Source: Candidatus Poribacteria bacterium (GTDB lineage: Bacteria; Poribacteria; WGA-4E; WGA-3G). From it: a stretch of 64,000 nt of DNA. Positions within the stretch are counted from its first letter, which is position 1. Each line of letters begins with the position of its first letter. The notes beneath the pieces are model-generated. The model was not told where the DNA came from and did not search any database. It saw nothing but the letters and a program-made list of their open reading frames with translations. Both the position numbers and the translations under genes were made by a program. The stretch lies in assembly GCA_965116815.1 (NCBI GenBank), contig OZ220722.1, positions 2,293,941 to 2,357,940 of the forward strand, given 5' to 3'. Shown here in pieces: positions 388-49,483 of this stretch.

Positions 388-1650
388 ATGAACACATTGG
401 AATCCAAATTAGGTGAAGTCGACCCGCAAATTGTTGAAATCGCCGCCAAAGATTTAAAACGTCAGCAAGATTCTCTCATGTTAATCCCTTCCGAAAATTA
501 CGCCAGCCGTGCTGTTATGGAGGCGCAAAGCAGCATTCTCGCCAATAAATACGCCGAGGGTTATCCCGGCGAGCGTTACTATAATGGGTGCCAGTTTATG
601 GACGATGTTGAATCGCTGGCGATTGCGCGCGCGAAGGGACTTTTTGGCGTTGATCACGTCAATGTCCAACCGCACGCTGGCAGCCAAGCGAACATGGCGG
701 TCTACCACGCGCTGCTTGAACCGGGTGACACAATTCTCGGTATGTCTCTCAGTCAAGGTGGACATCTCACGCACGGTGCCGGTGTCAACTTTTCGGGAAA
801 CTATTACAACATTGCTGCTTATGGTGTGGATGCTGAGAGCGAACGGATCGATATGGAAGAGATCACGCGTCTTGCTAAGGAGCATCGTCCGAAACTTATC
901 GTTGTTGGTGCGACAGCCTATCCTCGACACTTTGATTTTGCCGCATGGCGACAGGTTGCTGATTCCGTGGGTGCCTACTTACTTGCAGACATAGCGCATA
1001 TTGCGGGACTTATTGCTGGTGGTGCGCATCCGGATCCGGCTCCATACAGCGATGTGATCACTACAACAACACACAAGACCTTACGCGGTCCCCGCGGTGC
1101 CATGATTATGTGTAAAGCCGAACATGCGGATAAGATTGATCGCGCGGTGTTTCCGGGTTTACAAGGCGGACCTTTTCTCCATACAATCGCTGCGAGAGCC
1201 GTTGCTTTCAAGGAAGCGAGTGAACCCGCTTTCAAAACATATCAGGCACAGATTGTTAAAAATGCTAAAGCACTCGCTGCGAGGTTAACTGAAAATGGAT
1301 TCCGATTGGTGAGCGGTGGAACCGATAATCACCTGATGCTGATAGATCTTACCTCCAAGTACGAGAAGCTCAGTGGACGACAAGCCGCCGATCATTTGGA
1401 AGATGCCGGAATTATTGTGAATAAAAACACGATTCCTTTCGACAAAAGGAAACCGAGAACAACAAGCGGGCTACGCCTCGGTACACCGATGATCACGACA
1501 CGCGGGATGAAAGAGGATGAGATGGTCCAGGTTGCGGATTTCATCGCGGAGACGCTTGAAAATAGGCAGAAAGCCTCTATCAAACGGCAAATCCGAGAGA
1601 AGGTCAAAGAGCTCTGCGCACAATTTCCGATTTATGAATATTTAAATTAG
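388..1650 (+). CDS. glyA: serine hydroxymethyltransferase
   Basis: 420 aa with the full-length SHMT hallmark motifs, including SENY/S..GGHLTHG and the PLP-lysine region [12 protein letters not shown]. Confidence 0.95.
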
Positions 1651-1775
1651 TTATCGGTTGTCAGTTTTCAGTTAAGAGGGTTGGTGTAGCCTCTACAATG
1701 AACTGGACTGCCATAAGTAATTAACCGATAACTGATAACTGAAAGGTTTTTCATAGAAAAACCGAACTGACAACT
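1651..1775. repeat. Palindromic MITE/REP-like intergenic repeat, copy E1. Core GTTATCGGTTGTCAGTT...AAGAGGGT with an inverted partner AACCGATAACTGATAACTG, plus the hairpin GGTTTTTCATAGAAAAACC.
   Basis: It fills the whole glyA-folC spacer. It shares its core and hairpin with the copies at 21865-22040 and 30861-30943. Confidence 0.6.
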
Positions 1776-3152
1776 ATGAATTATGAAGCAGCACTCGCCT
1801 ATATTGAATCATTTATTGACTATGAAAGAAGCCCTGATTTTTCACGGCAGGCGAGGTTCTATAATCTGGACAGGATCTCTTTATTATTAGAACTGCTTGA
1901 TAATCCACACGATAGATTGAAGGTTATCCACATCGCAGGAAGCAAGGGGAAAGGCTCCACGGCTGCACTCGTGGCATCGGTGCTTACGCATGCTGGCTAT
2001 AAAACAGGGCTGTTTACATCCCCGCATCTCATTACGCCGCGAGAACGGTGCTGTATAGATGGTGCGTTAATTTCAGAGGCAGACGTTGCGTTCTATATTG
2101 AAAAACTCAAGCCTGCGATAGAAACTGTCTCCGCTTCTGAATTCGGACGTGTTTCGTTTTTTGAAATATACACTGCGCTTGCTTTTTCCTATTTCGCCGA
2201 CAAGGCAACAGACTTTGCCGTTATTGAAGTTGGTTTGGGCGGTAGACTCGATGCAACAAACGTTGTCACGCCCATCACGACTGTTATTACACCGATCGGT
2301 TTGGAGCACACCGCGATATTAGGCGAAACTTATATTGAGATAGCAGGTGAGAAGGCGGAAATCATTAAACAGGAGTGTCCATTGGCACTCGCTCCGCAGC
2401 GTCCGGAGGCGCAAGCTGTATTTGAAAAAGTGGCAGGTGAACGCAAGGCACCGATTATTGAAGCAAAGGGTTTCGTTGGAAAAAATTCTCTTCGCCTCAT
2501 TCAGGATACCGATGGTGTCCCTGTAGCACAACAATTTGACGTGGAAACGGATTCGGAGCGTTATTCGCAGCTCACTATGCCACTTTTAGGGCACCATCAG
2601 TTCGTAAACGCGATAACGGCTATTGCAGCGATTGAATGCCTGAAACAGAAAGGATACATAATTCCAAAAACCAGCGTTCACGCGGGATTTAAGTATGTGA
2701 AATGGCGTGGGCGAATTCAGCGAATTATGTCCTCACCCATTATTATACTTGATGGTGCACATTCGCCGATCTCAATGGAAGCGTTATGTTGTACGATCCG
2801 TCAGAGTTTTCGTTACACTCGGGTGACCTTTATTGTTAGCCTAATGAAAGATAAAAATCTGACAGCAATTGGCGACGTTATCTCACAAATAGCAGATTCC
2901 GTGATTACGACACAAGTGCCGAATAACCCGCGTGTGATGCCAGCTGAAGAGATACAGTATACTTGGAAGGGTATATGCAAGCGGGTGGCTACGTGTTCGA
3001 TGCCGGAAAAAGCCATCAAGAAGGCGTTATCCGACGCATCACCAACAGATTTAATTTGTATTACAGGTTCGCTCTATCTTGTTGGTCAAGCACTTAAAAT
3101 ATTTAAATCGAATTTTTCAGCGAAAGATCGTATTGAAATTTCGTTTTCTTAG
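1776..3152 (+). CDS. folC: bifunctional folylpolyglutamate synthase / dihydrofolate synthase (Mur-ligase family)
   Basis: P-loop HIAGSKGKGST and the Mur ligase central and C-terminal domains. 458 aa. Confidence 0.85.
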   Translation: MNYEAALAYIESFIDYERSPDFSRQARFYNLDRISLLLELLDNPHDRLKVIHIAGSKGKGSTAALVASVLTHAGYKTGLFTSPHLITPRERCCIDGALISEADVAFYIEKLKPAIETVSASEFGRVSFFEIYTALAFSYFADKATDFAVIEVGLGGRLDATNVVTPITTVITPIGLEHTAILGETYIEIAGEKAEIIKQECPLALAPQRPEAQAVFEKVAGERKAPIIEAKGFVGKNSLRLIQDTDGVPVAQQFDVETDSERYSQLTMPLLGHHQFVNAITAIAAIECLKQKGYIIPKTSVHAGFKYVKWRGRIQRIMSSPIIILDGAHSPISMEALCCTIRQSFRYTRVTFIVSLMKDKNLTAIGDVISQIADSVITTQVPNNPRVMPAEEIQYTWKGICKRVATCSMPEKAIKKALSDASPTDLICITGSLYLVGQALKIFKSNFSAKDRIEISFS

Positions 3153-3167
3153 CGAAAGATCGTAAGT

Positions 3168-3294
3168 CCGTAATGAAATGGAGAGATTTTGCTTGGGTAT
3201 TTCTGCGGATTTCTCCAAATCTACGGAAAGGAACTTCAATGCTCAAACACACTTCATCGAACTGCAAGGAAAATTAAAAAAAGAGAGGTTTTTA
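3168..3294 (+). repeat. conserved ~125-nt upstream/leader element, copy U1 (CCGTAATGAAATGGAG...TTTTGCTTGGGT...GCAAGGAAAATTAAAAA), immediately 5' of the hppA ATG
   Basis: About 75% identical across its whole length to 10797-10900, which lies upstream of an unrelated gene. Confidence 0.5.
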
Positions 3295-5664
3295 ATGCGT
3301 GATATCACTTGCAAGAGAGGGTGGCTAAATTGGAAGTCATTTCTGATACTCCTACCCATCCTAAATTTAGCCACCGAGGCTTTTGCCCAAACAGCCTCCC
3401 AACCTGCTCTGCCACTGGTATGGTGGATTGCCCCAATCGGTGCGCTTATTGCTTTAGGATTTGCTTATCACTTTTACCGTGCTGTGATGAAACAGGACGA
3501 GGGCAATGAAACAATGCGAGACATCGCACAATCTGTGCGCGATGGTGCAATGGCATATCTCCGGCAACAATACAAAGTGGTAGGTATCGTTTTTGTTGTC
3601 CTCTGCCTTATTTTTATCTTCATGGCTTTCGTCCTTGATGCGCAGAACAAAGTTGTTCCGTTTGCCTTTCTCACAGGCGGTTTTTTCTCAGGTCTCTGCG
3701 GTTTCCTCGGCATGAAGACAGCGACTAATGCCTCTGCTCGTACGACGAGTGCCGCGATGCAAGGCCTCAACGCAGGTTTAAAAGTTGCGTTCCGTGCTGG
3801 GGCAGTTATGGGACTAATAGTCGTCGGATTCGCCCTCCTCGATATTACGGGATGGTTTCTGATTCTCTACTACCTGTTCCCCAAGATACTGCCCGGATTT
3901 TTAGAAGTAAATCCGCTCCCGCAAATTACTGTGATTATGCTCAGCTTTGGTATGGGTGCCTCAACCCAAGCCCTCTTTGCCCGCGTTGGTGGTGGTATCT
4001 ATACCAAAGCAGCGGACGTTGGGGCAGACCTGGTTGGAAAAGTGGAAGCCGGAATCGCAGAAGATGACCCGCGTAACCCTGCTGCTATCGCAGATAACGT
4101 CGGCGATAACGTCGGCGATGTTGCGGGCATGGGAGCAGACCTCTACGAATCCTACGCAGGTTCAATCCTCGCGACGGCTGCGCTTGGTGTTGCTGCTGTC
4201 GCTGCCAAAGATCATGGTAACCTTGTCCTCCAACTTAAATATCTCTCGGCACCAATGATTATTGCTGGTATCGGCGTAATTCTCTCCATTTTGGGTATCT
4301 ATATGGTCAGAACAAAAGAGGGTGCGTCGATGAAACAACTGATGGGTTCGCTTAACTTCGGCATTAATGGCAGTGCAATAGGTATCGCAATTCTCTCTCT
4401 TCCGGTGTTACTCTATCTTGGTAAGGAAGAGGGTTTTGACAACGAATGGCAGATTTGGGGAGCAATTATTGCTGGACTTGTAGCAGGTTTAGTTATCGGC
4501 AAAGTCACCGAAATCTTTACGTCTCACGATTATTCTCCGACGCGTGCCATTGCGAAGCAGGCACAGACTGGACCCGCGACAGTAATTATTGAAGGCATCG
4601 CCGTTGGCATGGAATCAACGGCAATTCCGGTTATAACTATCGTTGCAGCGGTTGCTGTCAGTTACTACCTCCCTGGTGGGGCAACCGAACCACTGATGGG
4701 ACTTTACGGCGTCGGTATTGCTGCTGTTGGTATGTTGGCAACGCTCGGGATTACCCTTGCCACAGATGCCTACGGCCCCATCGCGGACAACGCTGGCGGA
4801 AACGCTGAGATGGCGGAACTCGATAAAAGTGTCCGAGAGCGGACAGATCAGTTAGATGCACTCGGTAATACGACAGCCGCAACCGGTAAAGGATTTGCGA
4901 TCGGTTCAGCCGCGCTAACGGCACTCGCACTTTTGGCAGCCTATTTAGAAGAAATTCGGTACGGTCTAATCCACTTAGCAGGCAAGGAAACACTGGATAT
5001 TGAAGGCGAAGGCACGATTGATACATTGAAGGTCACCGTCAGCCAATTTATGGATTACTACGATGTCACGCTGATGAATCCACAGGTCCTTATTGGATTG
5101 TTCATCGGGGCAGTGATGGCGTTCTATTTCTGCGCATTGACAATGAAAGCCGTGGGACGTGCTGCTGGAGCTATGGCCGCGGAAGTCCGTCGTCAGTTTC
5201 GTGAGAAGCCGGGCATTATGAAAGGCGAAGAAAAACCGGATTACGCACGATGTGTCGAAATTTCAACCGTTGGGGCACAACGAGAAATGATTTTTCCATC
5301 ACTCATCGCCATTATTGTGCCTGTCGCTGTCGGTCTAATTTTTGATGTCGGTGGTGTGTTAGGATTGCTGGCAGGTGGATTGGCGACTGGGTTTGTTCTC
5401 GCAATTATGATGGCAAATGCCGGTGGTGCATGGGATAACGCCAAGAAGTTCATTGAAGAAGGCAGTCATAAGGACGAATACGGTGAAAAGGGGTCCGAGC
5501 CTCATAAAGCTACCGTTGTTGGTGATACTGTCGGTGATCCTTTCAAAGACACTTCTGGTCCCTCGCTCAATATTTTGATTAAGTTGATGTCTATGGTGTC
5601 TGTCGTTTTTGCGGGTCTCATTGCGAAATACGGCGGTATGCTTAGCAGCTGGCTCAATATGTAG
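3295..5664 (+). CDS. hppA: membrane-bound proton/sodium-translocating pyrophosphatase (V-type H+-PPase)
   Basis: Polytopic membrane protein with the PPase signature GDNVGDNVGDVAGMGADL and C-terminal DTVGDPFKDTSGPSLN. The start is set at MRDITCK because the upstream in-frame stretch is the conserved leader element. Confidence 0.9.
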   Translation: MRDITCKRGWLNWKSFLILLPILNLATEAFAQTASQPALPLVWWIAPIGALIALGFAYHFYRAVMKQDEGNETMRDIAQSVRDGAMAYLRQQYKVVGIVFVVLCLIFIFMAFVLDAQNKVVPFAFLTGGFFSGLCGFLGMKTATNASARTTSAAMQGLNAGLKVAFRAGAVMGLIVVGFALLDITGWFLILYYLFPKILPGFLEVNPLPQITVIMLSFGMGASTQALFARVGGGIYTKAADVGADLVGKVEAGIAEDDPRNPAAIADNVGDNVGDVAGMGADLYESYAGSILATAALGVAAVAAKDHGNLVLQLKYLSAPMIIAGIGVILSILGIYMVRTKEGASMKQLMGSLNFGINGSAIGIAILSLPVLLYLGKEEGFDNEWQIWGAIIAGLVAGLVIGKVTEIFTSHDYSPTRAIAKQAQTGPATVIIEGIAVGMESTAIPVITIVAAVAVSYYLPGGATEPLMGLYGVGIAAVGMLATLGITLATDAYGPIADNAGGNAEMAELDKSVRERTDQLDALGNTTAATGKGFAIGSAALTALALLAAYLEEIRYGLIHLAGKETLDIEGEGTIDTLKVTVSQFMDYYDVTLMNPQVLIGLFIGAVMAFYFCALTMKAVGRAAGAMAAEVRRQFREKPGIMKGEEKPDYARCVEISTVGAQREMIFPSLIAIIVPVAVGLIFDVGGVLGLLAGGLATGFVLAIMMANAGGAWDNAKKFIEEGSHKDEYGEKGSEPHKATVVGDTVGDPFKDTSGPSLNILIKLMSMVSVVFAGLIAKYGGMLSSWLNM

Positions 5665-10734: not shown

Positions 10735-10796
10735 AAAAAAGGAGACGGTGTTCCTCCGCTTCCGCCACACCCGCGAAGTTTTAATGCGCGCATAGC

Positions 10797-10900
10797 CCGT
10801 AATGAAATGGAGGGTTTTTGCTTGGGTGTTTTTTTAGATAGACGGGGAGGAACGTCAAAGATCAAATCCACTTCAACAAACCGCAAGGGAAATTAAAAAT
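10797..10900 (+). repeat. conserved upstream/leader element, copy U2, immediately 5' of the lactonase ATG
   Basis: Aligns with 3168-3294 (CCGTAATGAAATGGAGGGTTTTTGCTTGGGTG...GCAAGGGAAATTAAAAAT). Confidence 0.5.
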
Positions 10901-19698: not shown

Positions 19699-19874
19699 TA
19701 GCGGAGGTCTGCTGAATTAAGTTTTTTTGACATCGTTCTTTAAATGTGTTATACTTAAAGAGGAAATATAATGCTTTCAGCATGGCCGTGAAACTTACTA
19801 AAACGGCGTGCGTAATTAACATCTAAATAGATTACCCAAAAAAGGCGTTGAAGGGGAGGAGTAAGTCGTCTGGG

Positions 19875-20125
19875 CTTGCGAGAGATGGAGACTCATCGGC
19901 TGAAAGGTCTCCTCAAGTTTCCACGACTGAAGGTCGCCCCGGAGCTGCTCATCTGAACAACTGTAGCAATAAGTAAGGTGAGTCGGTGTGATGCCCGTTA
20001 TCGCATCCCAAAGAGTGCTCTTTCTCGGTAAATGAAAATGAGAAAGGGAATTGGAGTGGTACCACGGTAAGGTCAGTGCAAATGTCCTTCTCGTCTCCAT
20101 GTTTGGAACGAGAAGGTTTTTTAAT
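19875..20125 (+). ncRNA. candidate T-box riboswitch leader (Leu specifier CUC?) with an intrinsic terminator, upstream of ilvB-ilvN-ilvC
   Basis: The boxes occur in the canonical order. AGAGA (AG box) is at about 19881. GCUGA (GNUGA box) is at about 19899. CUCA lies 3' of the distal hairpin at about 19912. CCGUUA (F box) is at about 19995. AAUUGGAGUGGUACCACGG, at about 20049-20067, matches the T-box consensus AAUUAGGGUGGUACCGCGG at 16 of 19 positions. The terminator CCTTCTCGT-loop-ACGAGAAGG + T6 is at about 20086-20122. Confidence 0.5.
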
Positions 20126-21852: not shown

Positions 21853-21864
21853 TGATTTTAAGGG

Positions 21865-22040
21865 TCGTCAGTTATCGGTTATCAGTTACAAGAGGGTACC
21901 GTTAAACGAGGGGAAACACCCTATCAAAAACACCTCTTAACCGATGACCGAAAGGTTTTTCGGAGAAAAACCGAACCGATAACCGATAACCATAAAACCG
22001 ACAACTGAAAGCCTGCGCAGCAGGCGAACTGAAAACTAAA
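21865..22040. repeat. MITE/REP-like palindromic repeat, copy E2, inserted between ilvB and ilvN. It contains GTCAGTTATCGGTTATCAGTTACAAGAGGGT, the hairpin GGTTTTTCGGAGAAAAACC, the inverted partner AACCGATAACCGATAACC and the hairpin GCCTGCGCAGCAGGC.
   Basis: Same core and hairpin as E1 and E3. It makes a 193-nt spacer between genes that are normally adjacent. Confidence 0.6.
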
Positions 22041-22045
22041 AAAAA

Positions 22046-22546
22046 ATGAATCCAGAAGAACGACACATCTTTTCGGTATTGGTCGAAAACCGATTTGGTG
22101 TCCTTGCCCGTGTGGCAGGACTCTTCAGCGGGCGCGGCTTTAATATCGACAGTCTCAACGTCGCCGAGACGCATGACAAAAGCATTTCGCAGATAACCCT
22201 TGTCACACACGGTGATGCACAGATCATTGAACAGATCTACCACCATTTAAACAGACTCATTGACGTTATTGAGGTGACGGACCTCTCCACGGCTGGAACG
22301 CATGTTGAGCGAGAACTTGTTCTTATCAAGATCGCTACCGATGATCCTCAAAAACGTACCGAAGTTCTACAAGTCGCGGAGGTTTTCCGTGGGCGGGTTA
22401 TAGATATGAAACCCGCCTCCCTCGTCCTCGAAATTACAGGTGATGAGGGTAAATTGAAAGCTGCGATTGATATTTTCAATACGTACGGTATCCTTGAATT
22501 GGCGCGCACCGGCAAAATAGCGATGTTACGCGGATCAGAAAAATAG
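22046..22546 (+). CDS. ilvN: acetolactate synthase small (regulatory) subunit
   Basis: ACT domain start HIFSVLVENRFGVLARVAGLFSGRGFNI. 166 aa. Confidence 0.9.
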   Translation: MNPEERHIFSVLVENRFGVLARVAGLFSGRGFNIDSLNVAETHDKSISQITLVTHGDAQIIEQIYHHLNRLIDVIEVTDLSTAGTHVERELVLIKIATDDPQKRTEVLQVAEVFRGRVIDMKPASLVLEITGDEGKLKAAIDIFNTYGILELARTGKIAMLRGSEK

Positions 22547-22565
22547 GATATAAAGGAATAGACTT

Positions 22566-25229: not shown

Positions 25230-25346
25230 AAGTGAAGTGCCTATCGTAAAATTAACAAATTGAAGGACTTATAATGGAATGGTTTGCAATTTCTATGTTA
25301 GTCATATTTCTCACAGGGCTCGGCATAGTCGCTGGGACTGCTATAA

Positions 25347-25826
25347 GTGTACTGCCAGGTCTGGGTAGGCGATATTACCTACGTCAGACTCAAGGGGCAC
25401 TTCGTCTATGTGAGTCTACTCATGGATGTCTTCACTCGCAGGATCAGAGGGTGGCAGGTGAGTCGACACCTGACCCAGCCGCTGACTTTGAGACCTTTAG
25501 AGCAAGCATTACGCCAAAGCGTCCCGGAGATCCATCACTCTGATCAAGGCGTTGAGTATCTTTCAAATGTCTATCTCTCGACGCTCACAGAGCATGGCGT
25601 TGAGATTTCTGTCGCCCGTCGCGGATGTCCTTGGGAGAACGGGTATGCTGAGAGACTCATCCGCACGCTCAAGGAGGAAGAAGTTTACCTAAATGACTAT
25701 CAGAACATTCACGAAGTGAAAGTCCGCATTGGGCATTTTATCACACAGGTGTATCATCAGAAACGCCCACATTCGGCGTTAGGGTATTTGACACCTATCG
25801 AATTCGAGCAGCAAAACTTGGATTAA
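25347..25826 (+). pseudogene. IS3-family transposase OrfB remnant (integrase catalytic core only; N-terminus and OrfA missing)
   Basis: WVGDITYV...HSDQG.EY...CPWENGYAERLIRTLKEE matches the IS3 DDE core. Only about 160 aa remain. No HTH/OrfA is left, and no obvious IRs. Confidence 0.75.
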
Positions 25827-30815: not shown

Positions 30816-30860
30816 TAAAAAGCCTCAATTTCAAGATATAATCTGTAATATGATTTTTAG

Positions 30861-30943
30861 GTTATAAGTTGTCAGTTATCGGTTGTCAGTTAAGAGCGTG
30901 TTCATTTACGGATAACCTCTTGTAACTGAAAACTGAAAACTAA
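30861..30943. repeat. MITE/REP-like palindromic repeat, copy E3 (GTTGTCAGTTATCGGTTGTCAGTTAAGAGCGTG ... ACCTCTTGTAACTGAAAACTGAAAAC)
   Basis: Same core as E1 and E2. It lies in the divergent region between the 377-aa gene and the PhyH gene. Confidence 0.55.
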
Positions 30944-31929: not shown

Positions 31930-33415
31930 AAACCGCCTTGCTTTAGCTGGGGGATACAGACTCGCTCTTGTGAATTAGACCAAAGCGTTTTTTGAAAAAA
32001 ACACTTGACATTTCTACGAAAATATGTTTTAATAGATGTATCACGTTGGCAGACATACCAAGCGTAACCGCAAGGTTACGTGTCTGCCTCCCCACTTGGT
32101 AGGGGTTAAAAGCGTGATACGTGAACATCCATGAAAACCTATAAACTGAAAATCCCTCACACTCAACAGTTAGACGCTCTGAATGCTGCGTCTGCGTCGG
32201 TTTGGAACGAGTGCCTGACTCTCAAATCCGTTTGGGATTATGCGCACGGCTATCGAAGCACCGGACGACTTGATCCACAATGTGAGTTGTGGATGGACAA
32301 GCAACTTTCCAAGTCCCAATCCCTACACTCACAGAGTATCCAAGCTGTCCGTGAGCGGTATTTCAAGAACAGAAAAGCCTATCGTGTGTTACGTAGGAAC
32401 GGCAATTCAACCGCCAAACCGCCGCATAAGTCTAAACGCTTTCAAACAACGACTTGGAAAAAGTCAGCCATCCGTTTCAAAGAAACATTGCTTGGTAAAG
32501 TCTTGATACTCTCTAATGGTAAAGGCACCCCTGCTTTAGAGATACCGCTTCCAAAGTTGTTTAACCTTTCTTTGACCCCTAATATTGTAATTGTGCACCT
32601 TGTCTATACTCGTGGACAATACGAACTTCATTTTGTCTATAACACCGAGACACCTGAAGTCTCTAAGGTTTCCGATGGCGTTGTGGGCGTTGATATTGGC
32701 GAGATACACCCGATTGTCAGCCATGACGGACATAACACACTGATTTTCAATGGGCGGTATATCCGAAGCCTATACCGATTGAGAAACAAGGTGATTGCCT
32801 CCTTTGGTAAAAAGATTGATAGGTGTAAACGCTATTCCAAACGTTGGTGGCATCTCGTGCGTAGGAAGTGGAAACGTCTTCAAAGGATTGACAATCAAAT
32901 CAAGGATGCGCTCCATCAACACACCACAAAGTTTGTGAAAAAATGTGGTGAGTCGGGTATAGGCACGATTGTCATTGGAGACCTAACGGGTATACGAGAC
33001 GATATCAACTATGGCAAACGTGCAAATCAGAAACTTCACCAGTGGGCTTTTGGTAAGGTTGCCGAGTTGATAACCTACAAAGCGAAATCTTTGGGTATCA
33101 AGGTTGACTTGATAGATGAGGCACATACCTCACAGACATGCCCAAAATGTGGCAACCGAAAGAAACCTACAAACCGAAACTACACCTGCAAATGCGGATT
33201 TAACTTTCACCGTGACGGTGTAGGTGCTATAAACATTCGCAAAAAGTATCTTGGACACTTCGGTGTCCCAGTAGTGGCGGACATGGATACCCAGGTTTCC
33301 ATGAAAATGACACCGCCCGTTGGATTTCGTCTCGAAGTCAAACGTTGCTCTGCCTGAGCAGAGAATGTTCCCACGAGGAACAAAAGAATCACCCTTGCTT
33401 TAGCTGGGTGAGTAT
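31930..33415 (+). mobile_element. IS200/IS605-family (IS1341-like) tnpB-only insertion sequence with direct-repeat-type ends
   Basis: The 16-mer CCTTGCTTTAGCTGGG occurs in direct orientation at about 31936 and about 33393, flanking tnpB. The LE carries a long hairpin GGCAGACAT...GTAACCGCAAGGTTAC...TGTCTGCC. The RE has the hairpin CTCTGCCTGAGCAGAG. No tnpA is present. Confidence 0.7.
32131..33357 (+). CDS. tnpB: TnpB (OrfB) RNA-guided endonuclease/transposase-accessory protein, RuvC-like plus Zn finger
   Basis: RuvC motifs VVGVDIGEIHP, IGDLTGIRDD and DEAHTSQTCPKCG, with the Zn finger CPKCGN...CKCG. Confidence 0.85.
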   Translation: MKTYKLKIPHTQQLDALNAASASVWNECLTLKSVWDYAHGYRSTGRLDPQCELWMDKQLSKSQSLHSQSIQAVRERYFKNRKAYRVLRRNGNSTAKPPHKSKRFQTTTWKKSAIRFKETLLGKVLILSNGKGTPALEIPLPKLFNLSLTPNIVIVHLVYTRGQYELHFVYNTETPEVSKVSDGVVGVDIGEIHPIVSHDGHNTLIFNGRYIRSLYRLRNKVIASFGKKIDRCKRYSKRWWHLVRRKWKRLQRIDNQIKDALHQHTTKFVKKCGESGIGTIVIGDLTGIRDDINYGKRANQKLHQWAFGKVAELITYKAKSLGIKVDLIDEAHTSQTCPKCGNRKKPTNRNYTCKCGFNFHRDGVGAINIRKKYLGHFGVPVVADMDTQVSMKMTPPVGFRLEVKRCSA

Positions 33416-33416
33416 G

Positions 33417-34886
33417 TCAATTAACATCAATTCTCATAAACGCCAAGACTGCCGCCATGAATAGGAGGAGTGCGAGCGAGACTAACAACGTTAGATCCAA
33501 CAGTGCGCCTCCGAAGGTGATACCGACAGTTAACTGTTCTGAAAACTTAGGAATGCTATTAAAGGGTACCGGTTTTTGGGATAACCCTTCTTTTACAAGA
33601 TAAACGTGGTAACTGTCGTTGTCTCCTCTATCTTCCGATTTAATAAAGTCGACGAACTGCCGTCTGTAGCGTCGGGCGTGTTGGACGAATCGTTTATGTC
33701 TGGCGAATCCTGTACCTGCCAAAGATTCTACAGCATATTTATAGATAGCCGCCGGAGAGAGTCGCGTAATTTGTTGCGTAAATTCAACCTGTGCGAACTG
33801 TTTATTGAGGTGTTCATCATTGATGCTGCTCTTGGCATCAGCATGTTCGTTTAGATAGTCAGCCCACATCCTTAACACCTCAATTTTAGGTGGCGTGTCG
33901 GAAGGCGAACCTGTTCTGTAAAGTTTGTCTCCTTCTTTGTGCCGAGTATCAATTTCGTCTTCTCTTGCTTTCTGTATGCGAGAAATTTCGCTTCTTGAGG
34001 ACACTTGCTGGAAACCGCTTGCCAATACACCCATAGTGTTCGGGATAAGCACCACAAACACAATCCAAATTAACAGCAACGTCAGCAAACTGCTTGACGA
34101 AGTAGAAAATTGGCTTGAGATAAACAGCCCAAGCCATAAGAATATTGAGATGTAGACAGCGGAAATAACAAAGATTATCCCCATCCGCACCCATTCGCCT
34201 CCGCTAAGCGACACCAATCTTGACGCATTGACGATCATTAAATTCAGTAGTACCGCAATAAACAACGGAATCAGGATCGTGAGAAACGCACCCGTGAATT
34301 TTCCCAGAAGCACGGTCGCGCGGGACACGGAATTAGACATGAGCAAGCTTAACGTGCCTGTTTCACGTTCTCCAGAGATGGCATCGTAAGTGAACAGAAT
34401 CGCCATAAAACTCATTACCAATCCGATGATGAATGTCCAATCCAATTCCGTGAAGTTTGGCAGCGAATCGTTTTTTCGAGATGTATGCTGTGGGTACTGA
34501 AGCCACCAGTTTGCTGACCAAGAGTAGTTGAAACTAAAATCAGGTGTCGTCATACCTATACCATAGCCGCCGCTTGGAGCCCCTTCAACTCGCTTGGGTA
34601 AGTTTGCATCCTCTCCCATTGCAATGAAGGTTAATGGGCTAACCGGTTTGTGTAGATACCCTGGGCCTTTTACTGCAAGTTCACTTAAATTACTGCTTCT
34701 CGTTTTGAGTGAGTCGATGGCTTGGTTGGTATCTTCGGAATATTCCGCGATCCTTCGCGGATATTGACTGCTCACGAATATCACGGCATTCATCACCATC
34801 AACACCATTACCAGAATCAGCGTGAGTGCGAATCGAAAACGCGTCAAATTATCAAGGATTTCTCGTTTTGCTATGTGCCAGATCAT
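33417..34886 (-). CDS. ABC-2-type transporter permease-like membrane protein (large extracytoplasmic loops)
   Basis: N-terminal TM, 4-5 clustered TMs and a C-terminal TM. It is a paralog of the adjacent gene. No ABC ATPase is nearby. Confidence 0.5.
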   Translation of the reverse strand: MIWHIAKREILDNLTRFRFALTLILVMVLMVMNAVIFVSSQYPRRIAEYSEDTNQAIDSLKTRSSNLSELAVKGPGYLHKPVSPLTFIAMGEDANLPKRVEGAPSGGYGIGMTTPDFSFNYSWSANWWLQYPQHTSRKNDSLPNFTELDWTFIIGLVMSFMAILFTYDAISGERETGTLSLLMSNSVSRATVLLGKFTGAFLTILIPLFIAVLLNLMIVNASRLVSLSGGEWVRMGIIFVISAVYISIFLWLGLFISSQFSTSSSSLLTLLLIWIVFVVLIPNTMGVLASGFQQVSSRSEISRIQKAREDEIDTRHKEGDKLYRTGSPSDTPPKIEVLRMWADYLNEHADAKSSINDEHLNKQFAQVEFTQQITRLSPAAIYKYAVESLAGTGFARHKRFVQHARRYRRQFVDFIKSEDRGDNDSYHVYLVKEGLSQKPVPFNSIPKFSEQLTVGITFGGALLDLTLLVSLALLLFMAAVLAFMRIDVN

Positions 34887-46824: not shown

Positions 46825-47421
46825 TTAGAGAACATCATACGTAGGAGCGTTCTCTCCACTGTACTTCAGATTAGCACCTTTTTTGTACCACCCGACATCG
46901 TCTTCGAGCCAATCATCAATTTCATCATCATGTAAAGGCACTTCACGTAAAAGTGCAGATCTAGCAACTTTCTCATAAACGAGCACGCTCTCATGCGTAG
47001 TGGTGAAACCTCGATTGTCACGACTTCCTTTTAGATTAAGAACTGCTGCAAGGCATACAATAAACGTATCAGCCCCAAATATTTCGTCCATGATCATTCG
47101 CAAATGATGCTGTTCGTGATGGTCAATAGAAACGAAAATAACGCCATCATCGGAAAGCAATTCGCGCAGCAAATGCAGGCGCGGCCACATCATGCAAAGC
47201 CATTTGTCATGGAGTTCAAGGTCTTCACCATCAACCGGACTGTTTTGAGCAAACCACGCTTGCATCAGCGGGCTATTCACTCGGTCATTGTACACCCAAG
47301 CCTGACTGCCTGTATTATATGGCGGATCAATGTAGATGCACTTGATCTTGCCAGCGTATTTTGGGAGAAGTGCCTTTAGTGCATGTAGGTTGTCGCCGTG
47401 GATAATGAGGTTATCATTCAA
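46825..47421 (-). pseudogene. N6-adenine/N4-cytosine DNA methyltransferase fragment (Type III Mod / beta-class-like), C-terminally truncated
   Basis: DNLHALKAL...IKCIYIDPPYNTG (motif IV DPPY) and HESVLVYEK. It stops after 198 aa, with no TRD or motif I. It begins with TTG directly after a poly-C tract. Confidence 0.7.
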
Positions 47422-47433
47422 CGGAGATTTTTC

Positions 47434-47446
47434 GGGGGGGGGGGGG
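47434..47446. repeat. homopolymeric G13 tract (C13 on the coding strand), 12 nt 5' of the Mod fragment start
   Basis: Seen directly in the sequence (ttcGGGGGGGGGGGGGtaaac). An upstream ATG at about 47546 would read through it into the Mod frame with 12 or 15 Cs rather than 13. Confidence 0.8.
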
Positions 47447-47563
47447 TAAACACGAATTAAGTGATTTTTCTGTGTCTATCTGTAGGGTGCGGACGGGGAC
47501 GGTGAGGTGGTGTCCGTATATGAATTGTTTGCCTTTGAAGTCGAGCGTGGGCATAGAGACTCC

Positions 47564-48412
47564 TTAAAAAATCTTATTCATATCAACAGGAAAACCTGCA
47601 TTTTTGATTTCTTGACCGAGTTTCAATTTCCAGTCTCCGCTATCCATAGGCACGTAGATTACGCCATCAATATCTGAGGGTTTCTCTATTTTTCCTTTGA
47701 AGAGCGGACATACTCGTTCACGACCCAGTTTTCCCATGAAATAACCGAGTTCAAAAACAACGTTCTGACGGGCTCTCGGTTTGCTTTCGTTCTCAATTTT
47801 ATCTTTTAAGGCACCAATATCGTCAGGTGTGAGTAGAACGATTGCAAATCCTGCATTACCGGCGTATTTTTCAAGCTTCTCAATGATCGTTAGTCCACTA
47901 CTGGGCTATTCGTGAAGGATAGTTACCTTTAAGCCCAATCTCTCTACAAACCTCGCAACGGTTTCTTTAACCCCATCATCGCGTCCGTGTACGATGAATA
48001 CTTCGTTACCCGAGATGAGCGGAAATGTGTCTGATGATTCATCGTACAGTTCAAGTTGATCCTGAATTCCCATTAGGTAATTGATATCCCTGTCTACATT
48101 TTCTCTGTATCTAATCAAATCCTTTGAAAACTCGACTCTTTCCTCCCTATTTGGAGACGAAACTATTCCCATAGGGTAAAAAATGCAGGCTCTTTCGTAT
48201 TCTTCTGCAACTAACGTCCCATCAAATAGGTGCAACAAAAGGTTTTTATTATGCCGTGACCAGTTTCCATGATCATTTCGAGCACGACTATATTCATCTC
48301 GTGCATCAATTTGTCTATCGCGGAGTTGTTGCCCTTTATCAATTTGCTCTTGTATTTTCTTCTCGGTTCCCTCTCTACTCACAAGCAATTTTGGAAGCGT
48401 TTTATCTTTCAT
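47564..48412 (-). pseudogene. TIR-like (COG4271/DUF2321-type, Cap12/PycTIR-like) protein with a novel ~130-aa N-terminal domain, interrupted by one in-frame TAG
   Basis: The ORF-track piece 47906-48412 ends ...[31 protein letters not shown]. The same frame continues [29 protein letters not shown]...RARQNVVFELGYFMGKLGRERV... to a TAA at about 47564. The paralog has CAG (Q) where this gene has TAG. Confidence 0.6.
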
Positions 48413-48861
48413 AGTTTCTCCTCAATAGGCAGTCCAGCGTTTTGCATGCCTTGACTGAGTTTCAGTTTCCAATCATCTGCACCATCCATGGGTACATAGA
48501 CTACGTTAGGAATATATGATGGTAATTCAACACCTTCTTTGTAGAGGATACACACTCGTTTATCGCCTAACCCCCCGAGGAGATAACCGAGCTCAAAGAT
48601 AACGTTTTGGCGGGCCCTAGGTTTCCGTTGTCCTGTAGCTTTTGAGGACCCAACATCGTCCGGTGTCAACAAGACAATTGCGAAACCCGCTTCATCTGCC
48701 TGTTCTTCAAACTTATCAATGATTGTTCGTCCCTTACTGGGTTGTTCGTCAAGAACGGTTGGCTTTAAACCCAACGTCTCTACAAATTTGGAGACGGCTG
48801 TTTTGGCTTCATCATCATGCCCATGGGCGATAAACACTTTCGATTGAGTTTTCACATTCAT
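48409..48861 (-). CDS. stand-alone TIR-like domain protein (COG4271/DUF2321-type)
   Basis: [20 protein letters not shown]...[18 protein letters not shown]...[10 protein letters not shown]...[32 protein letters not shown]. Its stop overlaps the next gene's ATG (ATGA). Confidence 0.65.
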
Positions 48862-49100: not shown

Positions 49101-49251
49101 GTTGTCAGTGAGTAAGTCGGGAAGCGGAGTTCCCTCCTACCAAGAGGGTTATCAGTTGTCGGTAAGTGTCGGGAAGCGGAGTTCCCTCCTACATTGGCTT
49201 TCAGCAGTCACCGGAGTTCCTGCGGAGTCGGGAATCGGAGTTCCCTCCTAC
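49101..49251. repeat. short tandem array: the 25-nt unit GTCGGGAAGCGGAGTTCCCTCCTAC occurs three times (third copy carries a T substitution at unit position 9) with 27- and 34-nt spacers that themselves carry GTTGTCAGT / GTTATCAGTTGTCGG motifs
   Basis: Seen directly. The unit has an internal GGGAA...TTCCC palindrome. The spacers resemble each other and the MITE-family core, so this is a tandem repeat rather than CRISPR. Confidence 0.7.
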
Positions 49252-49483
49252 AGCTCAAAATTGTAAAATTCGCCATATTTACACTTTCTTTGGATACGAG
49301 CCTCCGCCCTGTTACGGAGATTTGAAACCCTATTTCTATAAAAATCGTTTTATTAATGGGGATAGTGTATTAAAAATAGTTAGGATTTACGCAGCGCCCT
49401 TTGCTGGCGAGGTTTGAAACCTCGCCAGCGGCGTGCGGGCCATAGGTACTCATCAGTTTGCGTCAGTTTGCGTAAAGAAAATT

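What the first reader, a model, noticed from the sequence alone, without database searches (positions are those of the whole stretch)
1651..1775. New palindromic MITE/REP-like intergenic repeat family (three or more copies in 64 kb)
There are copies at 1651-1775 (glyA-folC spacer), 21865-22040 (ilvB-ilvN spacer) and 30861-30943 (divergent spacer). They share the core GTCAGTTATCGGTT(G/A)TCAGTT(A)(A/C)AAGAG(G/C)GT, an inverted partner (…ACCTCTT..AACTGA(A/T)AAC(C)GATAAC…) and, in the two longer copies, the hairpin GGTTTTTC-NNAG-AAAAACC. The elements are 80-180 nt, non-coding, and exactly fill gene-to-gene spacers. This behaviour matches REP/BIME-like or miniature inverted-repeat elements. These are probably recognised by a trans-acting transposase (REP-associated tyrosine transposase, RAYT) encoded elsewhere. 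I do not recognise this family.
Basis: seen in the sequence. Interest (0 to 1): 0.6.

Follow-up and report, generated by a model that had tools for sequence, protein, structure and literature searches.

The report
Heptamer-armed palindromic intergenic repeat of Poribacteria
The three spacers hold copies of a real, non-coding, hairpin-forming repeat common in Poribacteria genomes, whose arms are runs of the already published 7-base unit TCAGTTA/TAACTGA; it is gained and lost between close relatives, and nothing links it to the proposed RAYT transposase.

Summary
Three elements lie at 1648-1776, 21864-22038 and 30859-30942, far above chance. They are mosaics rather than simple palindromes. Each has a left arm of tandem heptamers (YRGTTDT), a junction CAGTTA(C)AAGAGG…CCTCTT(GT)AACTG around a variable centre, and a right arm of the reverse-complement heptamers. 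Copies 1 and 2 also carry small hairpin cassettes nested in the arms.

The unit is the "TAACTGA direct repeat" described in 2015 for Beggiatoaceae, Cyanobacteria and Bacteroidetes, whose function is unknown. The inverted-arm mosaic recurs in 35 loci from Poribacteria MAGs. With other centres it also occurs in several other phyla. No Rfam family matches it.

Orthologous spacers give four kinds of history:
- two clean filled/empty sites, with no target duplication over 2 nt;
- one site kept across relatives, with constant ends but three unrelated interiors;
- one site whose content differs in every relative examined;
- one deletion remnant.

I found no transposase association. The only RAYT near such arrays, in a cyanobacterium, has unrelated REPINs.

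My best reading is a non-autonomous, DNA-level mobile mosaic repeat, analogous to REP/BIME or MITEs, that survives only between a stop codon and the next ribosome-binding site. When transcribed it has RNA side effects. It is a new variant of a known kind and of moderate interest.

The parts
1648..1776 (.). Copy 1, whole element in the glyA-folC spacer
   Evidence: The outer ends are conserved in orthologues L127, L128, L129, L131 and L133.
1648..1675 (+). Copy 1 left arm: TAGTTAT CGGTTGT CAGTTTT CAGTTAA. The first three bases are the glyA stop codon.
1676..1720 (.). Copy 1 junction GAGGG plus variable centre, with a small AGAGG/CCTCT stem
   Evidence: The same centre is found in L127/L128. Unrelated centres are found in L129 and in L131/L133.
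1721..1741 (-). Copy 1 inner right arm: TTAACCG ATAACTG ATAACTG (reverse-complement units)
1745..1763 (.). Nested hairpin cassette GGTTTTTC-ATA-GAAAAACC. It is terminator-like only on the minus (antisense) strand.
1764..1776 (-). Copy 1 outer right units G AACTGAC AACTA. The last A is the A of the folC ATG, and there is no Shine-Dalgarno sequence.
21864..22038 (.). Copy 2, whole element in the ilvB-ilvN spacer, inside a T-box-controlled ilv operon
21869..21889 (+). Copy 2 left arm: CAGTTAT CGGTTAT CAGTTAC
21890..21938 (.). Copy 2 junction AAGAGGGT … variable centre … CCTCTT
21939..21951 (-). Copy 2 inner right units: AACCGA TGACCGA
21954..21972 (.). Nested hairpin cassette GGTTTTTC-GGA-GAAAAACC
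   Evidence: (D8).
21973..22008 (-). Copy 2 further reverse-complement units: GAACCGATAACCGATAACCATAAAACCGACAACTGA
22011..22025 (.). Second nested cassette GCCTGC-GCA-GCAGGC. It has the same CG…C-TTT frame as the cassette at 21954-21972. It is shared with orthologue L121 and is terminator-like only on the minus strand.
22026..22038 (-). Copy 2 last units GAACTGAAAACTA, followed by an A-run and the ilvN ATG at 22046
30859..30942 (.). Copy 3, the short form, in the divergent spacer between a 377-aa gene on the minus strand and a PhyH-family gene on the plus strand. It is absent from the orthologous spacer in L148-L151.
30859..30893 (+). Copy 3 left arm, five units, ending CAGTTAA
30894..30921 (.). 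Copy 3 junction and short centre: GAGCG TGTTCATTTACGGATAA CCTCTT
   Evidence: Similar short forms occur at other loci in L065 and L082.
30922..30942 (-). Copy 3 right arm: GTAACTG AAAACTG AAAACTA
22547..22565 (.). Unoccupied site in the ilvN-ilvC spacer. The close relative L121 carries a 135-nt element of the same family at this point.
49141..49167 (+). Heptamer-element-like fragment CAAGAGGGTTATCAGTTGTCGGTAAGT, lying between two copies of an unrelated 25-nt repeat. Its relation to the family is uncertain.

Best explanation
**What it is (shown).** The three loci are members of a family of mosaic palindromic intergenic elements found across many Poribacteria MAGs.
- Each arm is a tandem array of 2-6 degenerate heptamers YRGTTDT. 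This is the TCAGTTA/TAACTGA unit.
- The outermost unit is T[A/G]GTTDT, usually preceded by AA.
- The innermost unit is CAGTTAA, fused to GAGG.
- The two arms face each other across a centre that differs greatly from copy to copy.
- Small hairpin cassettes of the frame CRGTN-CG-stem-loop-stem-C-TTT-CRGT are nested in the arms.

**How it behaves (shown).**
- Whole elements are present or absent at exactly the same point in close relatives, with no target duplication longer than 2 nt.
- At a conserved site the ends persist while the interior is replaced or gains cassettes.
- Elements can be lost by deletion.

**Mechanism (inferred).** These are non-autonomous selfish or near-neutral DNA elements.
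- They are spread at the DNA level by a trans-acting activity that recognises the hairpin or heptamer arms. That activity has not been identified.
- Local remodelling follows, through slippage and recombination between the shared arms.
- Selection lets them persist only where they break nothing, between a stop codon and the next ribosome-binding site or start codon. This is why they seem to fill spacers exactly.

**Effect when transcribed (inferred).** They form a long imperfect stem-loop in the intercistronic RNA.
- The stem-loop does not terminate sense transcription, because ilvN and ilvC lie downstream of copy 2 in one operon.
- In flush cases such as glyA-folC, the upstream UAG and the downstream SD-less AUG sit together at the foot of the stem. 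This would couple translation of the two genes.
- In the divergent spacer, the arms of copy 3 supply -35-like CTGACA/TTGTAA boxes facing both genes.
For: **Anatomy and non-randomness:**

**Family membership**
- 35 of the 120 loci returned for the shared 18-mer are Poribacteria MAGs. This is strong over-representation for so small a group.
- Those loci show the same architecture and cassettes.
- The unit is the published TAACTGA repeat.

**Gain and loss**
- ilvN-ilvC is empty in the window and filled with 135 nt in L121, whose IlvN is 95% identical.
- The p377-PhyH spacer is filled in the window and empty in L148-L151, whose PhyH proteins are 85-89% identical.
- glyA-folC is filled in six genomes at 83-100% FolC identity. 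The ends are the same, the interiors fall into three unrelated types, and L127/L128 carry an extra 30-nt insert.
- L130 is a deletion leaving TAGTTA. L132 has no element and instead has a GGAG SD.
- The ilvB-ilvN spacer differs in content in every relative.

**Same form at unrelated loci:** the short form of copy 3 is 77-85% identical to elements in L065 and L082.

**Position relative to genes**
- In about 12 cases the element starts at or within 3 nt of a stop codon.
- It ends either about 19-20 nt before the ATG, leaving AAGGAG intact, or at the ATG itself.
- Gene contexts are 21 co-directional, 5 convergent and 1 divergent.

**DNA level rather than RNA level**
- Folding energy shows no sense/antisense asymmetry: 11 of 21 elements, p = 0.73.
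- The arms are not more complementary than random partners at the variable positions: 6 of 28, against 46 +/- 8%.

**Not a terminator**
- Terminator-like hairpins are found only on the antisense strand.
- No promoter-like site lies between ilvB and ilvN.
- A T-box lies upstream of ilvB.

**Not a curated RNA family:**
Against: - No transposase or other mobilising activity was identified, and no autonomous element bounded by heptamer arms was found.
- The arms vary in unit number and order, and 23 of 36 centres are unique. This is unlike a classical MITE copied from one master.
- The same F…R layout would also arise from two independent arrays, each tied to a gene end. Solo arms do exist.
- Identical units in many phyla hint at a conserved recognition function rather than mere selfishness.
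- Most related loci were picked with an 18-mer from the element itself, so the architecture statistics are biased by how the sample was chosen.
- Gene calls in the loci are crude longest-ORF calls.
- The RNA effects (translational coupling, promoter boxes) are untested inference.
Confidence: 0.6

Rival explanations
1. The elements are REP/REPIN-type sequences mobilised by a REP-associated tyrosine transposase (RAYT, of the HUH Y1 family) encoded elsewhere in the genome.
For: - The elements are palindromic, form hairpins, lie between genes and occur in many copies.
- They appear as inverted doublets with some solo halves, as REPINs and REPs do.
- Insertion leaves no target duplication, as expected for single-strand HUH transposition.
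- An IS605-family TnpB element at 31937-33417 shows that Y1-dependent elements have been active in this genome.
Against: - There is no short GTAG-headed REP. The arms are 14-42 nt heptamer arrays of variable composition.
- No Y1/RAYT was seen in the window or in any Poribacteria locus. This rests on a crude sequence-pattern scan of all the DNA held, on Pfam for 20 window ORFs, and on 146 neighbouring ORFs in which no such family was recurrent.
- The one RAYT-like gene in 1.09 Mb around such arrays (L010, a cyanobacterium) is flanked by its own unrelated REPINs.
Confidence: 0.12
2. The heptamer arrays are cis-regulatory binding sites for a conserved protein or for the ribosome, as MacGregor proposed for TAACTGA repeats. 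The hairpin layout would be a functional device for translational coupling or SD-independent initiation rather than selfish DNA.
For: - The same unit, with the same variable positions, occurs in many phyla.
- Arrays in the TAACTGA orientation abut start codons with no SD in several genes, including folC here and in five orthologues. The element-free orthologue L132 has a GGAG SD instead.
- Stop and start codons are juxtaposed at the stem foot.
- The outer arm ends are conserved while the interiors turn over.
- Published proposal: PMC4679880.
Against: - Elements are present or absent at the same gene pair in close relatives with no other visible change.
- The flanking genes have no common function. 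The top neighbour families are assorted oxidoreductases.
- Many elements stop short of an intact SD.
- One copy lies in a divergent promoter region.
- There is no strand asymmetry in folding.
- No binding factor is known.
Confidence: 0.2
3. The elements are not mobile. Two independent simple-sequence arrays grow in place by replication slippage, one after each stop codon and one before each start codon. They only look like one palindromic element because both point inward.
For: - Unit number and order vary freely.
- Centres are mostly unique.
- Solo arms exist.
- The arms are not mutually complementary at the variable positions.
- Heptamers are the commonest long simple repeats in bacteria, and indels in 7-nt steps are reported (PMC4679880).
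Against: - Arms plus centre appear or vanish together at sharp boundaries.
- A conserved AAGAGG/CCTCTT junction and shared centre or cassette types recur at non-orthologous loci and in different genomes.
- The terminal units are defined.
Confidence: 0.1
4. The elements are intrinsic transcription terminators or attenuators between genes.
For: - They form strong stem-loops.
- The nested cassettes are hairpins followed by TTT.
Against: - In copies 1 and 2 the cassettes look like terminators only on the antisense strand.
- No U-tract follows the main stem.
- Copy 2 sits between ilvB and ilvN in a T-box-controlled operon, with no promoter-like site downstream.
- My tally of the orientations listed against the gene strands gives about 6 sense and 10 antisense, so cassette orientation relative to genes is mixed.
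Confidence: 0.03

Closest known systems
TAACTGA heptamer direct repeats (MacGregor 2015, Front Microbiol, PMC4679880)
   Same: - The 7-nt unit is the same (TAACTGA, which is TCAGTTA on the other strand).
- The repeats are intergenic.
- They are often immediately upstream of start codons, in the orientation that carries stop codons in all three frames.
- Their phylogenetic distribution is patchy and spans several phyla.
- Their function is unknown.
   Different: - In the Beggiatoaceae genome almost all sets are direct repeats of the exact unit, with 169 direct sets and 1 indirect.
- Here the units are degenerate (A/G at position 2, A/G/T at position 6).
- Here they are arranged as inverted arrays around an AAGAGG/CCTCTT junction, with nested hairpin cassettes, so that they form long stem-loops.
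- Poribacteria are not among the taxa reported in that paper.
REP / BIME / REPIN elements with RAYT transposases (enterobacteria, Pseudomonas; PMC3116915)
   Same: - Both are interspersed extragenic palindromes.
- Both are mosaics of inverted units with linker motifs.
- Both lie inside operons and at gene ends.
- Both occur as doublets that form hairpins, plus singlets.
- Neither leaves a target duplication.
   Different: - There is no sequence similarity and no GTAG-headed 20-40 nt palindrome.
- The arms are arrays of variable length.
- No RAYT association was found.
MITEs of bacteria (for example Correia/CREE of Neisseria and Nezha of cyanobacteria; named from my own knowledge)
   Same: - The size is 80-180 nt.
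- They have terminal inverted repeats and are non-coding.
- They show presence/absence polymorphism.
- They can supply promoter or RNA-structure elements to neighbouring genes.
   Different: - No target-site duplication was seen.
- No parent insertion sequence with the same ends was seen.
- Centres are mostly unique rather than copied from a master.
Cyanobacterial STRR heptamer repeats, and the small dispersed repeats nested in them (Mazel 1990 and Elhai 2008; from my own knowledge, as the papers are not held in the library)
   Same: - Both involve tandem heptamers in intergenic DNA.
- Both have very small hairpin-forming cassettes inserted into repeat tracts.
   Different: - The heptamer sequences differ (the STRR units, as I recall them, are CCCCAGT, TTGGTCA and CAACAGT).
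- The host phylum differs.
- The inverted-arm architecture with a conserved junction is not, as far as I recall, a feature of STRR.

Membership tests
TAACTGA heptamer repeats (MacGregor 2015) | Tandem head-to-tail copies (two or more) of the 7-nt unit TAACTGA/TCAGTTA | tested here: met
   Arrays of 3-5 units occur in each arm. CAGTTAT is the commonest unit.
TAACTGA heptamer repeats (MacGregor 2015) | Only the exact unit is repeated, and near variants are not | tested here: not met
   Units are mixed: CAGTTAT, CGGTTAT, CAGTTGT, CGGTTGT and CAGTTTT. In the Beggiatoaceae genome variants are rarely repeated.
TAACTGA heptamer repeats (MacGregor 2015) | [quoted passage not shown] | tested here: met
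   All arrays in the window are intergenic. Arrays in the TAACTGA orientation end 0-38 nt before the folC and ilvN start codons, and do the same before many genes in the loci.
TAACTGA heptamer repeats (MacGregor 2015) | Direct repeats only, not inverted pairs | tested here: not met
   At least 34 of 62 arms in Poribacteria loci have an inverted partner within 200 nt. All three window copies are inverted pairs.
REP/REPIN with RAYT | A 20-40 nt imperfect palindrome with a conserved 5' GT(A/G)G | tested here: not met
   The terminal units are AA-T[A/G]GTTDT. There is no conserved GTAG, and the arms are arrays of variable length.
REP/REPIN with RAYT | Inverted doublets that form a hairpin (REPIN), plus singlets | tested here: met
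   Paired arms and solo arms are both seen. This is an analogy of layout only.
REP/REPIN with RAYT | A RAYT (Y1 HUH) gene in the genome, flanked by the same repeat | tested here: inconclusive
   - A crude HUH/Y1 pattern scan of the whole window and of 1.09 Mb around arrays found none in the window or in Poribacteria loci.
- Pfam on 20 window ORFs and on 146 neighbouring ORFs showed none among the recurrent families.
- The single RAYT-like ORF (L010) has other REPINs.
- The rest of the genome could not be searched.
MITE | Terminal inverted repeats, small size, no coding capacity | tested here: met
   The elements are 84-175 nt with inverted arms and stop codons throughout.
MITE | Target-site duplication flanking the element | tested here: not met
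   Two filled/empty comparisons show no duplication longer than 2 nt.
MITE | Presence/absence polymorphism at orthologous sites | tested here: met
   ilvN-ilvC is filled in L121 and empty in the window. p377-PhyH is filled in the window and empty in L148-L151. L130 carries a deletion.
MITE | A related autonomous element with the same ends and a transposase | tested here: inconclusive
   Four arm pairs lie 0.4-5 kb apart. I looked at the ORFs in two of them, and they enclose ordinary or unknown small ORFs. No transposase recurs among the neighbours. The sample is about 1 Mb, not whole genomes.
Intrinsic terminator | A G+C-rich hairpin followed by a U-tract on the sense strand | tested here: not met
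   Only antisense-strand matches were found in copies 1 and 2, and no element-derived match in copy 3.
Any Rfam family | A match to a curated covariance model | tested here: not met
   There was no hit on the elements at gathering score or at E<=5 in the window. There was none in 122 kb of Poribacteria loci.

The most novel reading that the evidence does not exclude
The degenerate heptamer YRGTTDT would be a recognition code read by one conserved, still unidentified trans-acting factor: a transposase-like enzyme or a nucleic-acid-binding protein. This would explain why identical units build hairpin arms in Poribacteria, Bacteroidota, Cyanobacteria, Planctomycetota, Verrucomicrobiota, Acidobacteriota, Latescibacterota and some Gammaproteobacteria. 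In Poribacteria the inverted arrays would have been co-opted as intercistronic couplers. They place the upstream stop codon and an SD-less downstream start codon together at the foot of a stem, so that the second gene is translated only through termination-reinitiation.
Probability: 0.12. Interest if true: 0.8.

Novelty: new variant of a known kind. Interest (0 to 1): 0.5.

Why it matters
Heptamer repeats have been seen in bacterial intergenic DNA for decades (STRR, my recollection) and the TAACTGA repeats since 2015, with no accepted function or origin.

This window and its relatives supply material the earlier descriptions lacked. One unit type builds defined palindromic mosaic elements, and those elements have datable gains, losses and interior replacements at orthologous sites. 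They sit in a candidate phylum for which several complete long-read genomes now exist, so the question of origin can be addressed by whole-genome census.

If the elements are only selfish filler, they are still useful in three ways:
- as markers for strain typing;
- as a warning for gene callers. An upstream ATG in or beside these intergenic repeats can be mistaken for the true start, as with the 487-aa FolC call in L129, where the ATG taken lies just past the right arm;
- as a recurrent source of hairpins inside operons.

If the arms are read by a conserved factor, that would be a gene-expression or DNA-mobility mechanism shared across phyla.

Tried and rejected
- **Rfam.** Gathering-score and E<=5 scans of the window, and a gathering-score scan of 18 loci, found nothing on the elements.
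- **Annotated plasmids.** A distant blastn found no match.
- **Viral contigs.** The 18-mer gave 11 hits. By my rough estimate this is no enrichment, so I did not pursue it.
- **Autonomous parent element.** Four arm pairs lie 0.4-5 kb apart. I listed ORFs for two of them. They enclose an ordinary binding-protein gene or small unknown ORFs, with no transposase.
- **Recurrent neighbouring families.** In 146 ORFs the top families are PhyH, GFO_IDH_MocA and ADH. TnpB appears only twice and Y1 does not appear.
- **HUH/Y1 pattern scan of 1.09 Mb.** It found one RAYT, which has unrelated REPINs.
- **RNA-level selection.**
  - Sense and antisense fold energies do not differ.
  - The arms are less complementary than random partners at the variable positions: 6 of 28. 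The sample is small. Two earlier scripts caught too few elements.
- **Target-site duplication.** Models with TA, T or no duplication all fit within one indel. Nothing longer than 2 nt fits.
- **Terminator reading.** Rejected.
- **Chance.** Rejected.
- **Link to the TnpB element at 31937-33417.** Its ends are CCTTGCTTTAGCTGGG repeats, not heptamers.
- **Look-ups that failed.**
  - The window's own GlyA and FolC are not on record by exact sequence, so I could not obtain the source genome.
  - Elhai 2008 is not held in the library.
- **Pfam by alignment id.** It returns only the 25 most recurrent families, so it cannot exclude a single transposase.
Full report
**1. The observation**

The shared core is a run of 7-nt units.
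- On the left of each element the units read N-R-G-T-T-N-N, for example TAGTTAT CGGTTGT CAGTTTT CAGTTAA at 1648-1675.
- On the right they read as the reverse complement, for example TTAACCG ATAACTG ATAACTG at 1721-1741.

The three spacers stand out clearly.
- A scan for three or more consecutive units finds six arrays in 64 kb, one per strand in each of the three spacers and none elsewhere.
- The 12-mer CAGTTATCGGTT with up to two mismatches occurs 22 times, against 5.08 +/- 2.29 in shuffles, and 0 of 100 shuffles reach 22.
- The repeat finder recovers the family and the cross-copy inverted match.
- Each copy folds far better than shuffled controls on both strands, with z between -2.7 and -4.6.

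The extents are 1648-1776, 21864-22038 and 30859-30942.

**2. Anatomy**

The elements are mosaics.
- The innermost left unit CAGTTA(A/C) runs into (A)AGAGG. The mirror CCTCTT(GT)AAC opens the right arm in copies 2 and 3. In copy 1 the matching CCTCT lies close to the left junction.
- The centres share nothing: 45, about 40 and 17 nt.
- Copies 1 and 2 carry a nested cassette GGTTTTTC-NNN-GAAAAACC, at 1745-1763 and 21954-21972. Copy 2 has a second cassette, GCCTGC-GCA-GCAGGC, at 22011-22025.

Across loci these cassettes share the frame CRGTN-CG-stem-loop-stem-C-TTT-CRGT. The stem sequence changes in a paired way: GTTTTTC/GAAAAAC, ATTTTTC/GAAAAAT, CCTGC/GCAGG, ATTTGC/GCAAAT. They are therefore small hairpin units inserted into heptamer tracts.

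Flanking genes (Pfam):
- Copy 1 lies between glyA (SHMT) and folC.
- Copy 2 lies between ilvB and ilvN.
- Copy 3 lies between a 377-aa gene on the minus strand and a PhyH-family gene.

In copy 1 the glyA stop codon TAG (1648-1650) is the first three bases of the first unit. The last base of the element is the A of the folC ATG (1776). No Shine-Dalgarno sequence lies between.

**3. Source organism and wider occurrence**

The 18-mer AGTTATCGGTTRTCAGTT, shared exactly by all three copies, was scanned against one genome per GTDB species.
- My arithmetic gives about 140 chance matches in 596 Gb, so the raw count means little. The taxa are informative.
- 35 of the 120 loci come from about two dozen Poribacteria MAGs.
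- The window's FolC is 90% identical to a protein named Candidatus Poribacteria.
- In those Poribacteria loci the same architecture recurs. The outermost unit is T[A/G]GTTDT, usually preceded by AA. Inner units are CRGTTDT and the innermost is CAGTTAA+GAGG. Centres vary, and the same cassettes appear.

Outside Poribacteria the same units also build inverted arms around lineage-specific centres:
- Saprospiraceae and other Bacteroidota
- Thermoanaerobaculia
- Latescibacterota
- Planctomycetaceae
- Competibacteraceae
- Kiritimatiellales and Verrucomicrobia
- Cyanobacteria also gave matches, as runs of the same units.

Three hits (L040, L045, L060) lie inside one homologous coding sequence and are not repeats.

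**4. What is already known**

A full-text search led to MacGregor 2015 (PMC4679880).
- TAACTGA, the complement of TCAGTTA, occurs as abundant intergenic direct repeats in marine Beggiatoaceae, 15 Cyanobacteria and 5 Bacteroidetes.
- It is often just upstream of start codons.
- In that orientation it carries stop codons in all three frames.
- A single array is predicted to be unstructured.
- The function is unknown. A translational role and horizontal spread were proposed.

That paper reports 169 direct sets and one indirect set in the Beggiatoaceae genome, and near variants there are hardly ever repeated. It does not mention Poribacteria.

Searches for the repeat sequence, for Poribacteria plus repeat or MITE, and for 'Poribacteria-1' found nothing further. 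A Nostoc preprint discusses other heptamers and is equally speculative about function. Rfam has no matching family.

So the unit is known. The inverted-arm mosaic and its abundance in Poribacteria appear undescribed in what I could search.

**5. History at orthologous sites**

This is the most informative evidence.

(a) *glyA-folC*.
- Six genomes with FolC 83-100% identical carry an element whose two ends are the same: TAG+TTATCGGT… and …AACTGACA(A/C)CT+ATG.
- The interior falls into three unrelated types.
- L127 and L128 have the window's centre plus a 30-nt insert in the left arm.
- L130 keeps only TAGTTA, so it is a deletion derivative.
- L132 (81%) has no element and instead has a GGAG Shine-Dalgarno sequence.

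(b) *ilvB-ilvN*.
- Every relative has a long spacer with different content.
- L121 shares only the 3' cassette and the last units with the window.
- L122 and L123 have decayed units.
- L125 and L126 have no arrays.

(c) *ilvN-ilvC*.
- The window has 19 nt: TAGGATAT|AAAGGAATAGACTTATG.
- L121, whose IlvN is 95% identical, has a complete 135-nt element exactly between GATAT and AAAAGGAAG.

(d) *p377-PhyH*.
- The window carries copy 3.
- L148-L151, with PhyH 85-89% identical and the same gene order, have other short sequences between the conserved flanks …AATCTGT… and ATATATTATACC.

In (c) and (d) no target duplication longer than 2 nt can be fitted.

The short form of copy 3 is 77-85% identical to elements at non-orthologous loci in L065 and L082.

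Together these results show whole-unit gain or loss at sharp boundaries, long persistence with replacement of the interior, and dispersal of similar units to unrelated loci.

**6. Position rules**

In 48 array clusters of Poribacteria loci, using crude longest-ORF calls, the arrays press against gene ends.
- In about a dozen cases the stop codon is the first unit or lies within 3 nt of it.
- Right ends fall into two classes. Some stop about 19-20 nt before the ATG and leave an AAGGAG-type Shine-Dalgarno sequence intact. Others abut the ATG directly with no Shine-Dalgarno sequence.
- Gene contexts are 21 co-directional, 5 convergent and 1 divergent. The divergent case is the window's copy 3.

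This is the pattern expected of sequences tolerated only where they break nothing. It also fits a role in translation.

**7. Tests of mechanism**

*RNA level or DNA level?*
- Sense and antisense fold energies do not differ. The sense strand is more stable in 11 of 21 elements (Wilcoxon p = 0.73).
- Paired units of the two arms are complementary at the two variable positions in only 6 of 28 cases. Shuffled partners give 46 +/- 8%. The sample is small.
- There is therefore no sign of selection for pairing beyond the five invariant positions. Perfect palindromy may even be avoided.

*Terminator?*
- In copies 1 and 2 the only terminator-like matches are the nested cassettes read on the antisense strand.
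- Copy 2 lies between ilvB and ilvN, downstream of a T-box leader at 19839-20101. No promoter-like site follows it.
- Sense transcription must therefore pass through.

*Transposase?*
- The window holds a TnpB element (32131-33357, bounded by CCTTGCTTTAGCTGGG repeats) and an IS3-type fragment. Neither has heptamer ends.
- 146 neighbouring ORFs in 35 loci show no recurrent transposase.
- Of four arm pairs 0.4-5 kb apart, the two I examined enclose ordinary genes or small unknown ORFs.
- A pattern scan for HUH/Y1 proteins over 1.09 Mb found one RAYT-like gene, in a cyanobacterial locus. It is flanked by its own REPINs (GAAGTCGGGTTTC…). The heptamers there belong to a separate 120-nt tandem repeat.

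*Master copy?*
- 23 of 36 centres are unique. The shared parts are the nested cassettes.

**8. Explanation**

*Shown.* This is a family of mosaic palindromic intergenic elements built from TAACTGA-type heptamers. It is gained, lost and internally remodelled on the time scale of species divergence within Poribacteria.

*Inferred, with about 0.6 confidence for the overall picture.*
- The elements are non-autonomous DNA spread by an unidentified trans-acting activity that acts on the hairpin or heptamer arms. The absence of a target duplication points to a single-strand or recombinational route rather than a DDE transposase.
- Slippage and recombination between the shared arms then remodel them. 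This would explain why ends persist while interiors change.
- Purifying selection confines survivors to the gap between a stop codon and the next ribosome-binding site.

*Consequences when transcribed (inferred).*
- A long imperfect stem forms in the intercistronic RNA.
- In flush cases the UAG pairs with the CUA that overlaps the AUG. A terminating ribosome would then open the start region, which is a plausible coupling device.
- The element-free orthologue has its own Shine-Dalgarno sequence.
- In the divergent spacer, CTGACA and TTGTAA in the arms lie 17-18 nt from flank -10-like boxes facing both genes.

**9. Rivals**

- *RAYT/REPIN (0.12).* The layout and the lack of duplication fit. The defining REP features are absent and no RAYT link was seen. 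A single distant RAYT cannot be excluded.
- *Regulatory binding arrays (0.2, not exclusive).* Favoured by the cross-phylum identity of the unit and by SD-less starts. Weakened by presence/absence at the same gene pairs and by unrelated neighbouring functions.
- *Growth of two independent arrays in place (0.1).* This explains the variability and the solo arms. It does not explain whole-unit gain or loss, or junctions and cassettes shared between loci.
- *Terminator (0.03).* Rejected for the sense strand.

**10. Verdict**

The finding is real. The RAYT mechanism is unsupported. 'Unrecognised family' is only half right, because the unit was published in 2015.

The element is a new variant of a known kind. 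Interest is moderate at 0.5. The cross-phylum reuse of one heptamer as hairpin arms is unexplained and could now be tested on complete Poribacteria genomes.

Caveats:
- Most comparison loci were chosen with an 18-mer from the element itself.
- Gene calls in the loci are crude.
- The source genome itself could not be retrieved.

Noticed in passing
window 3160-3282 and 10794-10899; also L127-L132 (folC-PPase spacer), L129/L130 (glyA-folC), L125, L032 ~6489, L086, L042, L145/L147: This is a second intergenic repeat family. It has a 5' hairpin with an invariant 13-nt loop GTAATGNAATGGA, closed by a covarying stem (CCC/GGG, CCGC/GCGG, GCGC/GCGC). The long form continues …CTACGGAAAGGAAC…ACCGCAAGGAAAATTAAAAA, up to the SD or the ATG of unrelated genes (H+-PPase, an IF-2B-family gene, folC, ilvC, a nuoK-like gene). 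It has no Rfam match. It could be a mobile leader that brings its own ribosome-binding region, or a protein-binding RNA hairpin. It also implies that the H+-PPase start is near 3295, not 3178.
   Followed up: partly
window 49116-49251: Three copies of the 25-nt repeat GTCGGGAAGCGGAGTTCCCTCCTAC are separated by 27- and 34-nt spacers. The first spacer (CAAGAGGGTTATCAGTTGTCGGTAAGT) looks like a piece of the heptamer element. The repeat was absent from the 133 loci held when it was searched. A weak CRISPR-DR9 hit lies nearby at 49391-49420 (E = 0.49). Whether this is a mini-array or another hairpin repeat is undecided.
   Followed up: partly
window 31937-33417: A TnpB-only IS605-family element lies here. 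The ORF at 32131-33357 has OrfB_IS605 and Cas12f1-like TNB domains. The element is bounded by CCTTGCTTTAGCTGGG direct repeats and has an internal TTGACA-N17-TTTAAT promoter-like site. It is inserted between PhyH and an ABC-2 permease gene, and the syntenic relatives L145-L151 lack it. Its 5' region is conserved in L063 and L082.
   Followed up: partly
window 19839-20101: A T-box leader (112.8 bits) lies upstream of ilvB and apparently controls ilvB-ilvN-ilvC and the following genes. T-boxes are usually associated with Firmicutes, so this is a notable occurrence in Poribacteria.
   Followed up: no
window 46825-48861: Two adjacent TIR-domain ORFs of the CAP12/Pycsar effector type lie at 47906-48412 and 48409-48861, with a 204-nt internal duplication at 71% identity (47800-48003 and 48636-48839). 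They sit next to a DNA methylase fragment at 46825-47421. This may be a small defence island.
   Followed up: no
window 25274-25826: An IS3-type integrase-core (rve) fragment lies directly after the ilv operon genes.
   Followed up: no
L010 4940-7110 (cyanobacterial MAG): A RAYT-like gene is flanked by its own REPINs (GAAGTCGGGTTTCT…AGAAACCCGACTTC). About 1 kb away lies a ~120-nt tandem repeat in which each unit ends in TCAGTTA-type heptamers. This is a natural case where REPINs and heptamer arrays coexist but are distinct.
   Followed up: partly
L035 and L073 (Kiritimatiellales / Verrucomicrobia MAGs): A heptamer-armed hairpin is conserved at the same position in two different genomes. It lies between an upstream gene ending …DDDKKK* and the SD of a GroES-like gene (MNIKPLGDRVLVEP).
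   Followed up: no
L031, L086, L112, L125, L130 and window 32005-32040: A promoter-like repeat of the form TGTAAACATATTTTTGGATTTTACTATAAC (a -35/-10 pair) recurs in Poribacteria spacers and next to the TnpB 5' region. It may be a further dispersed element.
   Followed up: no
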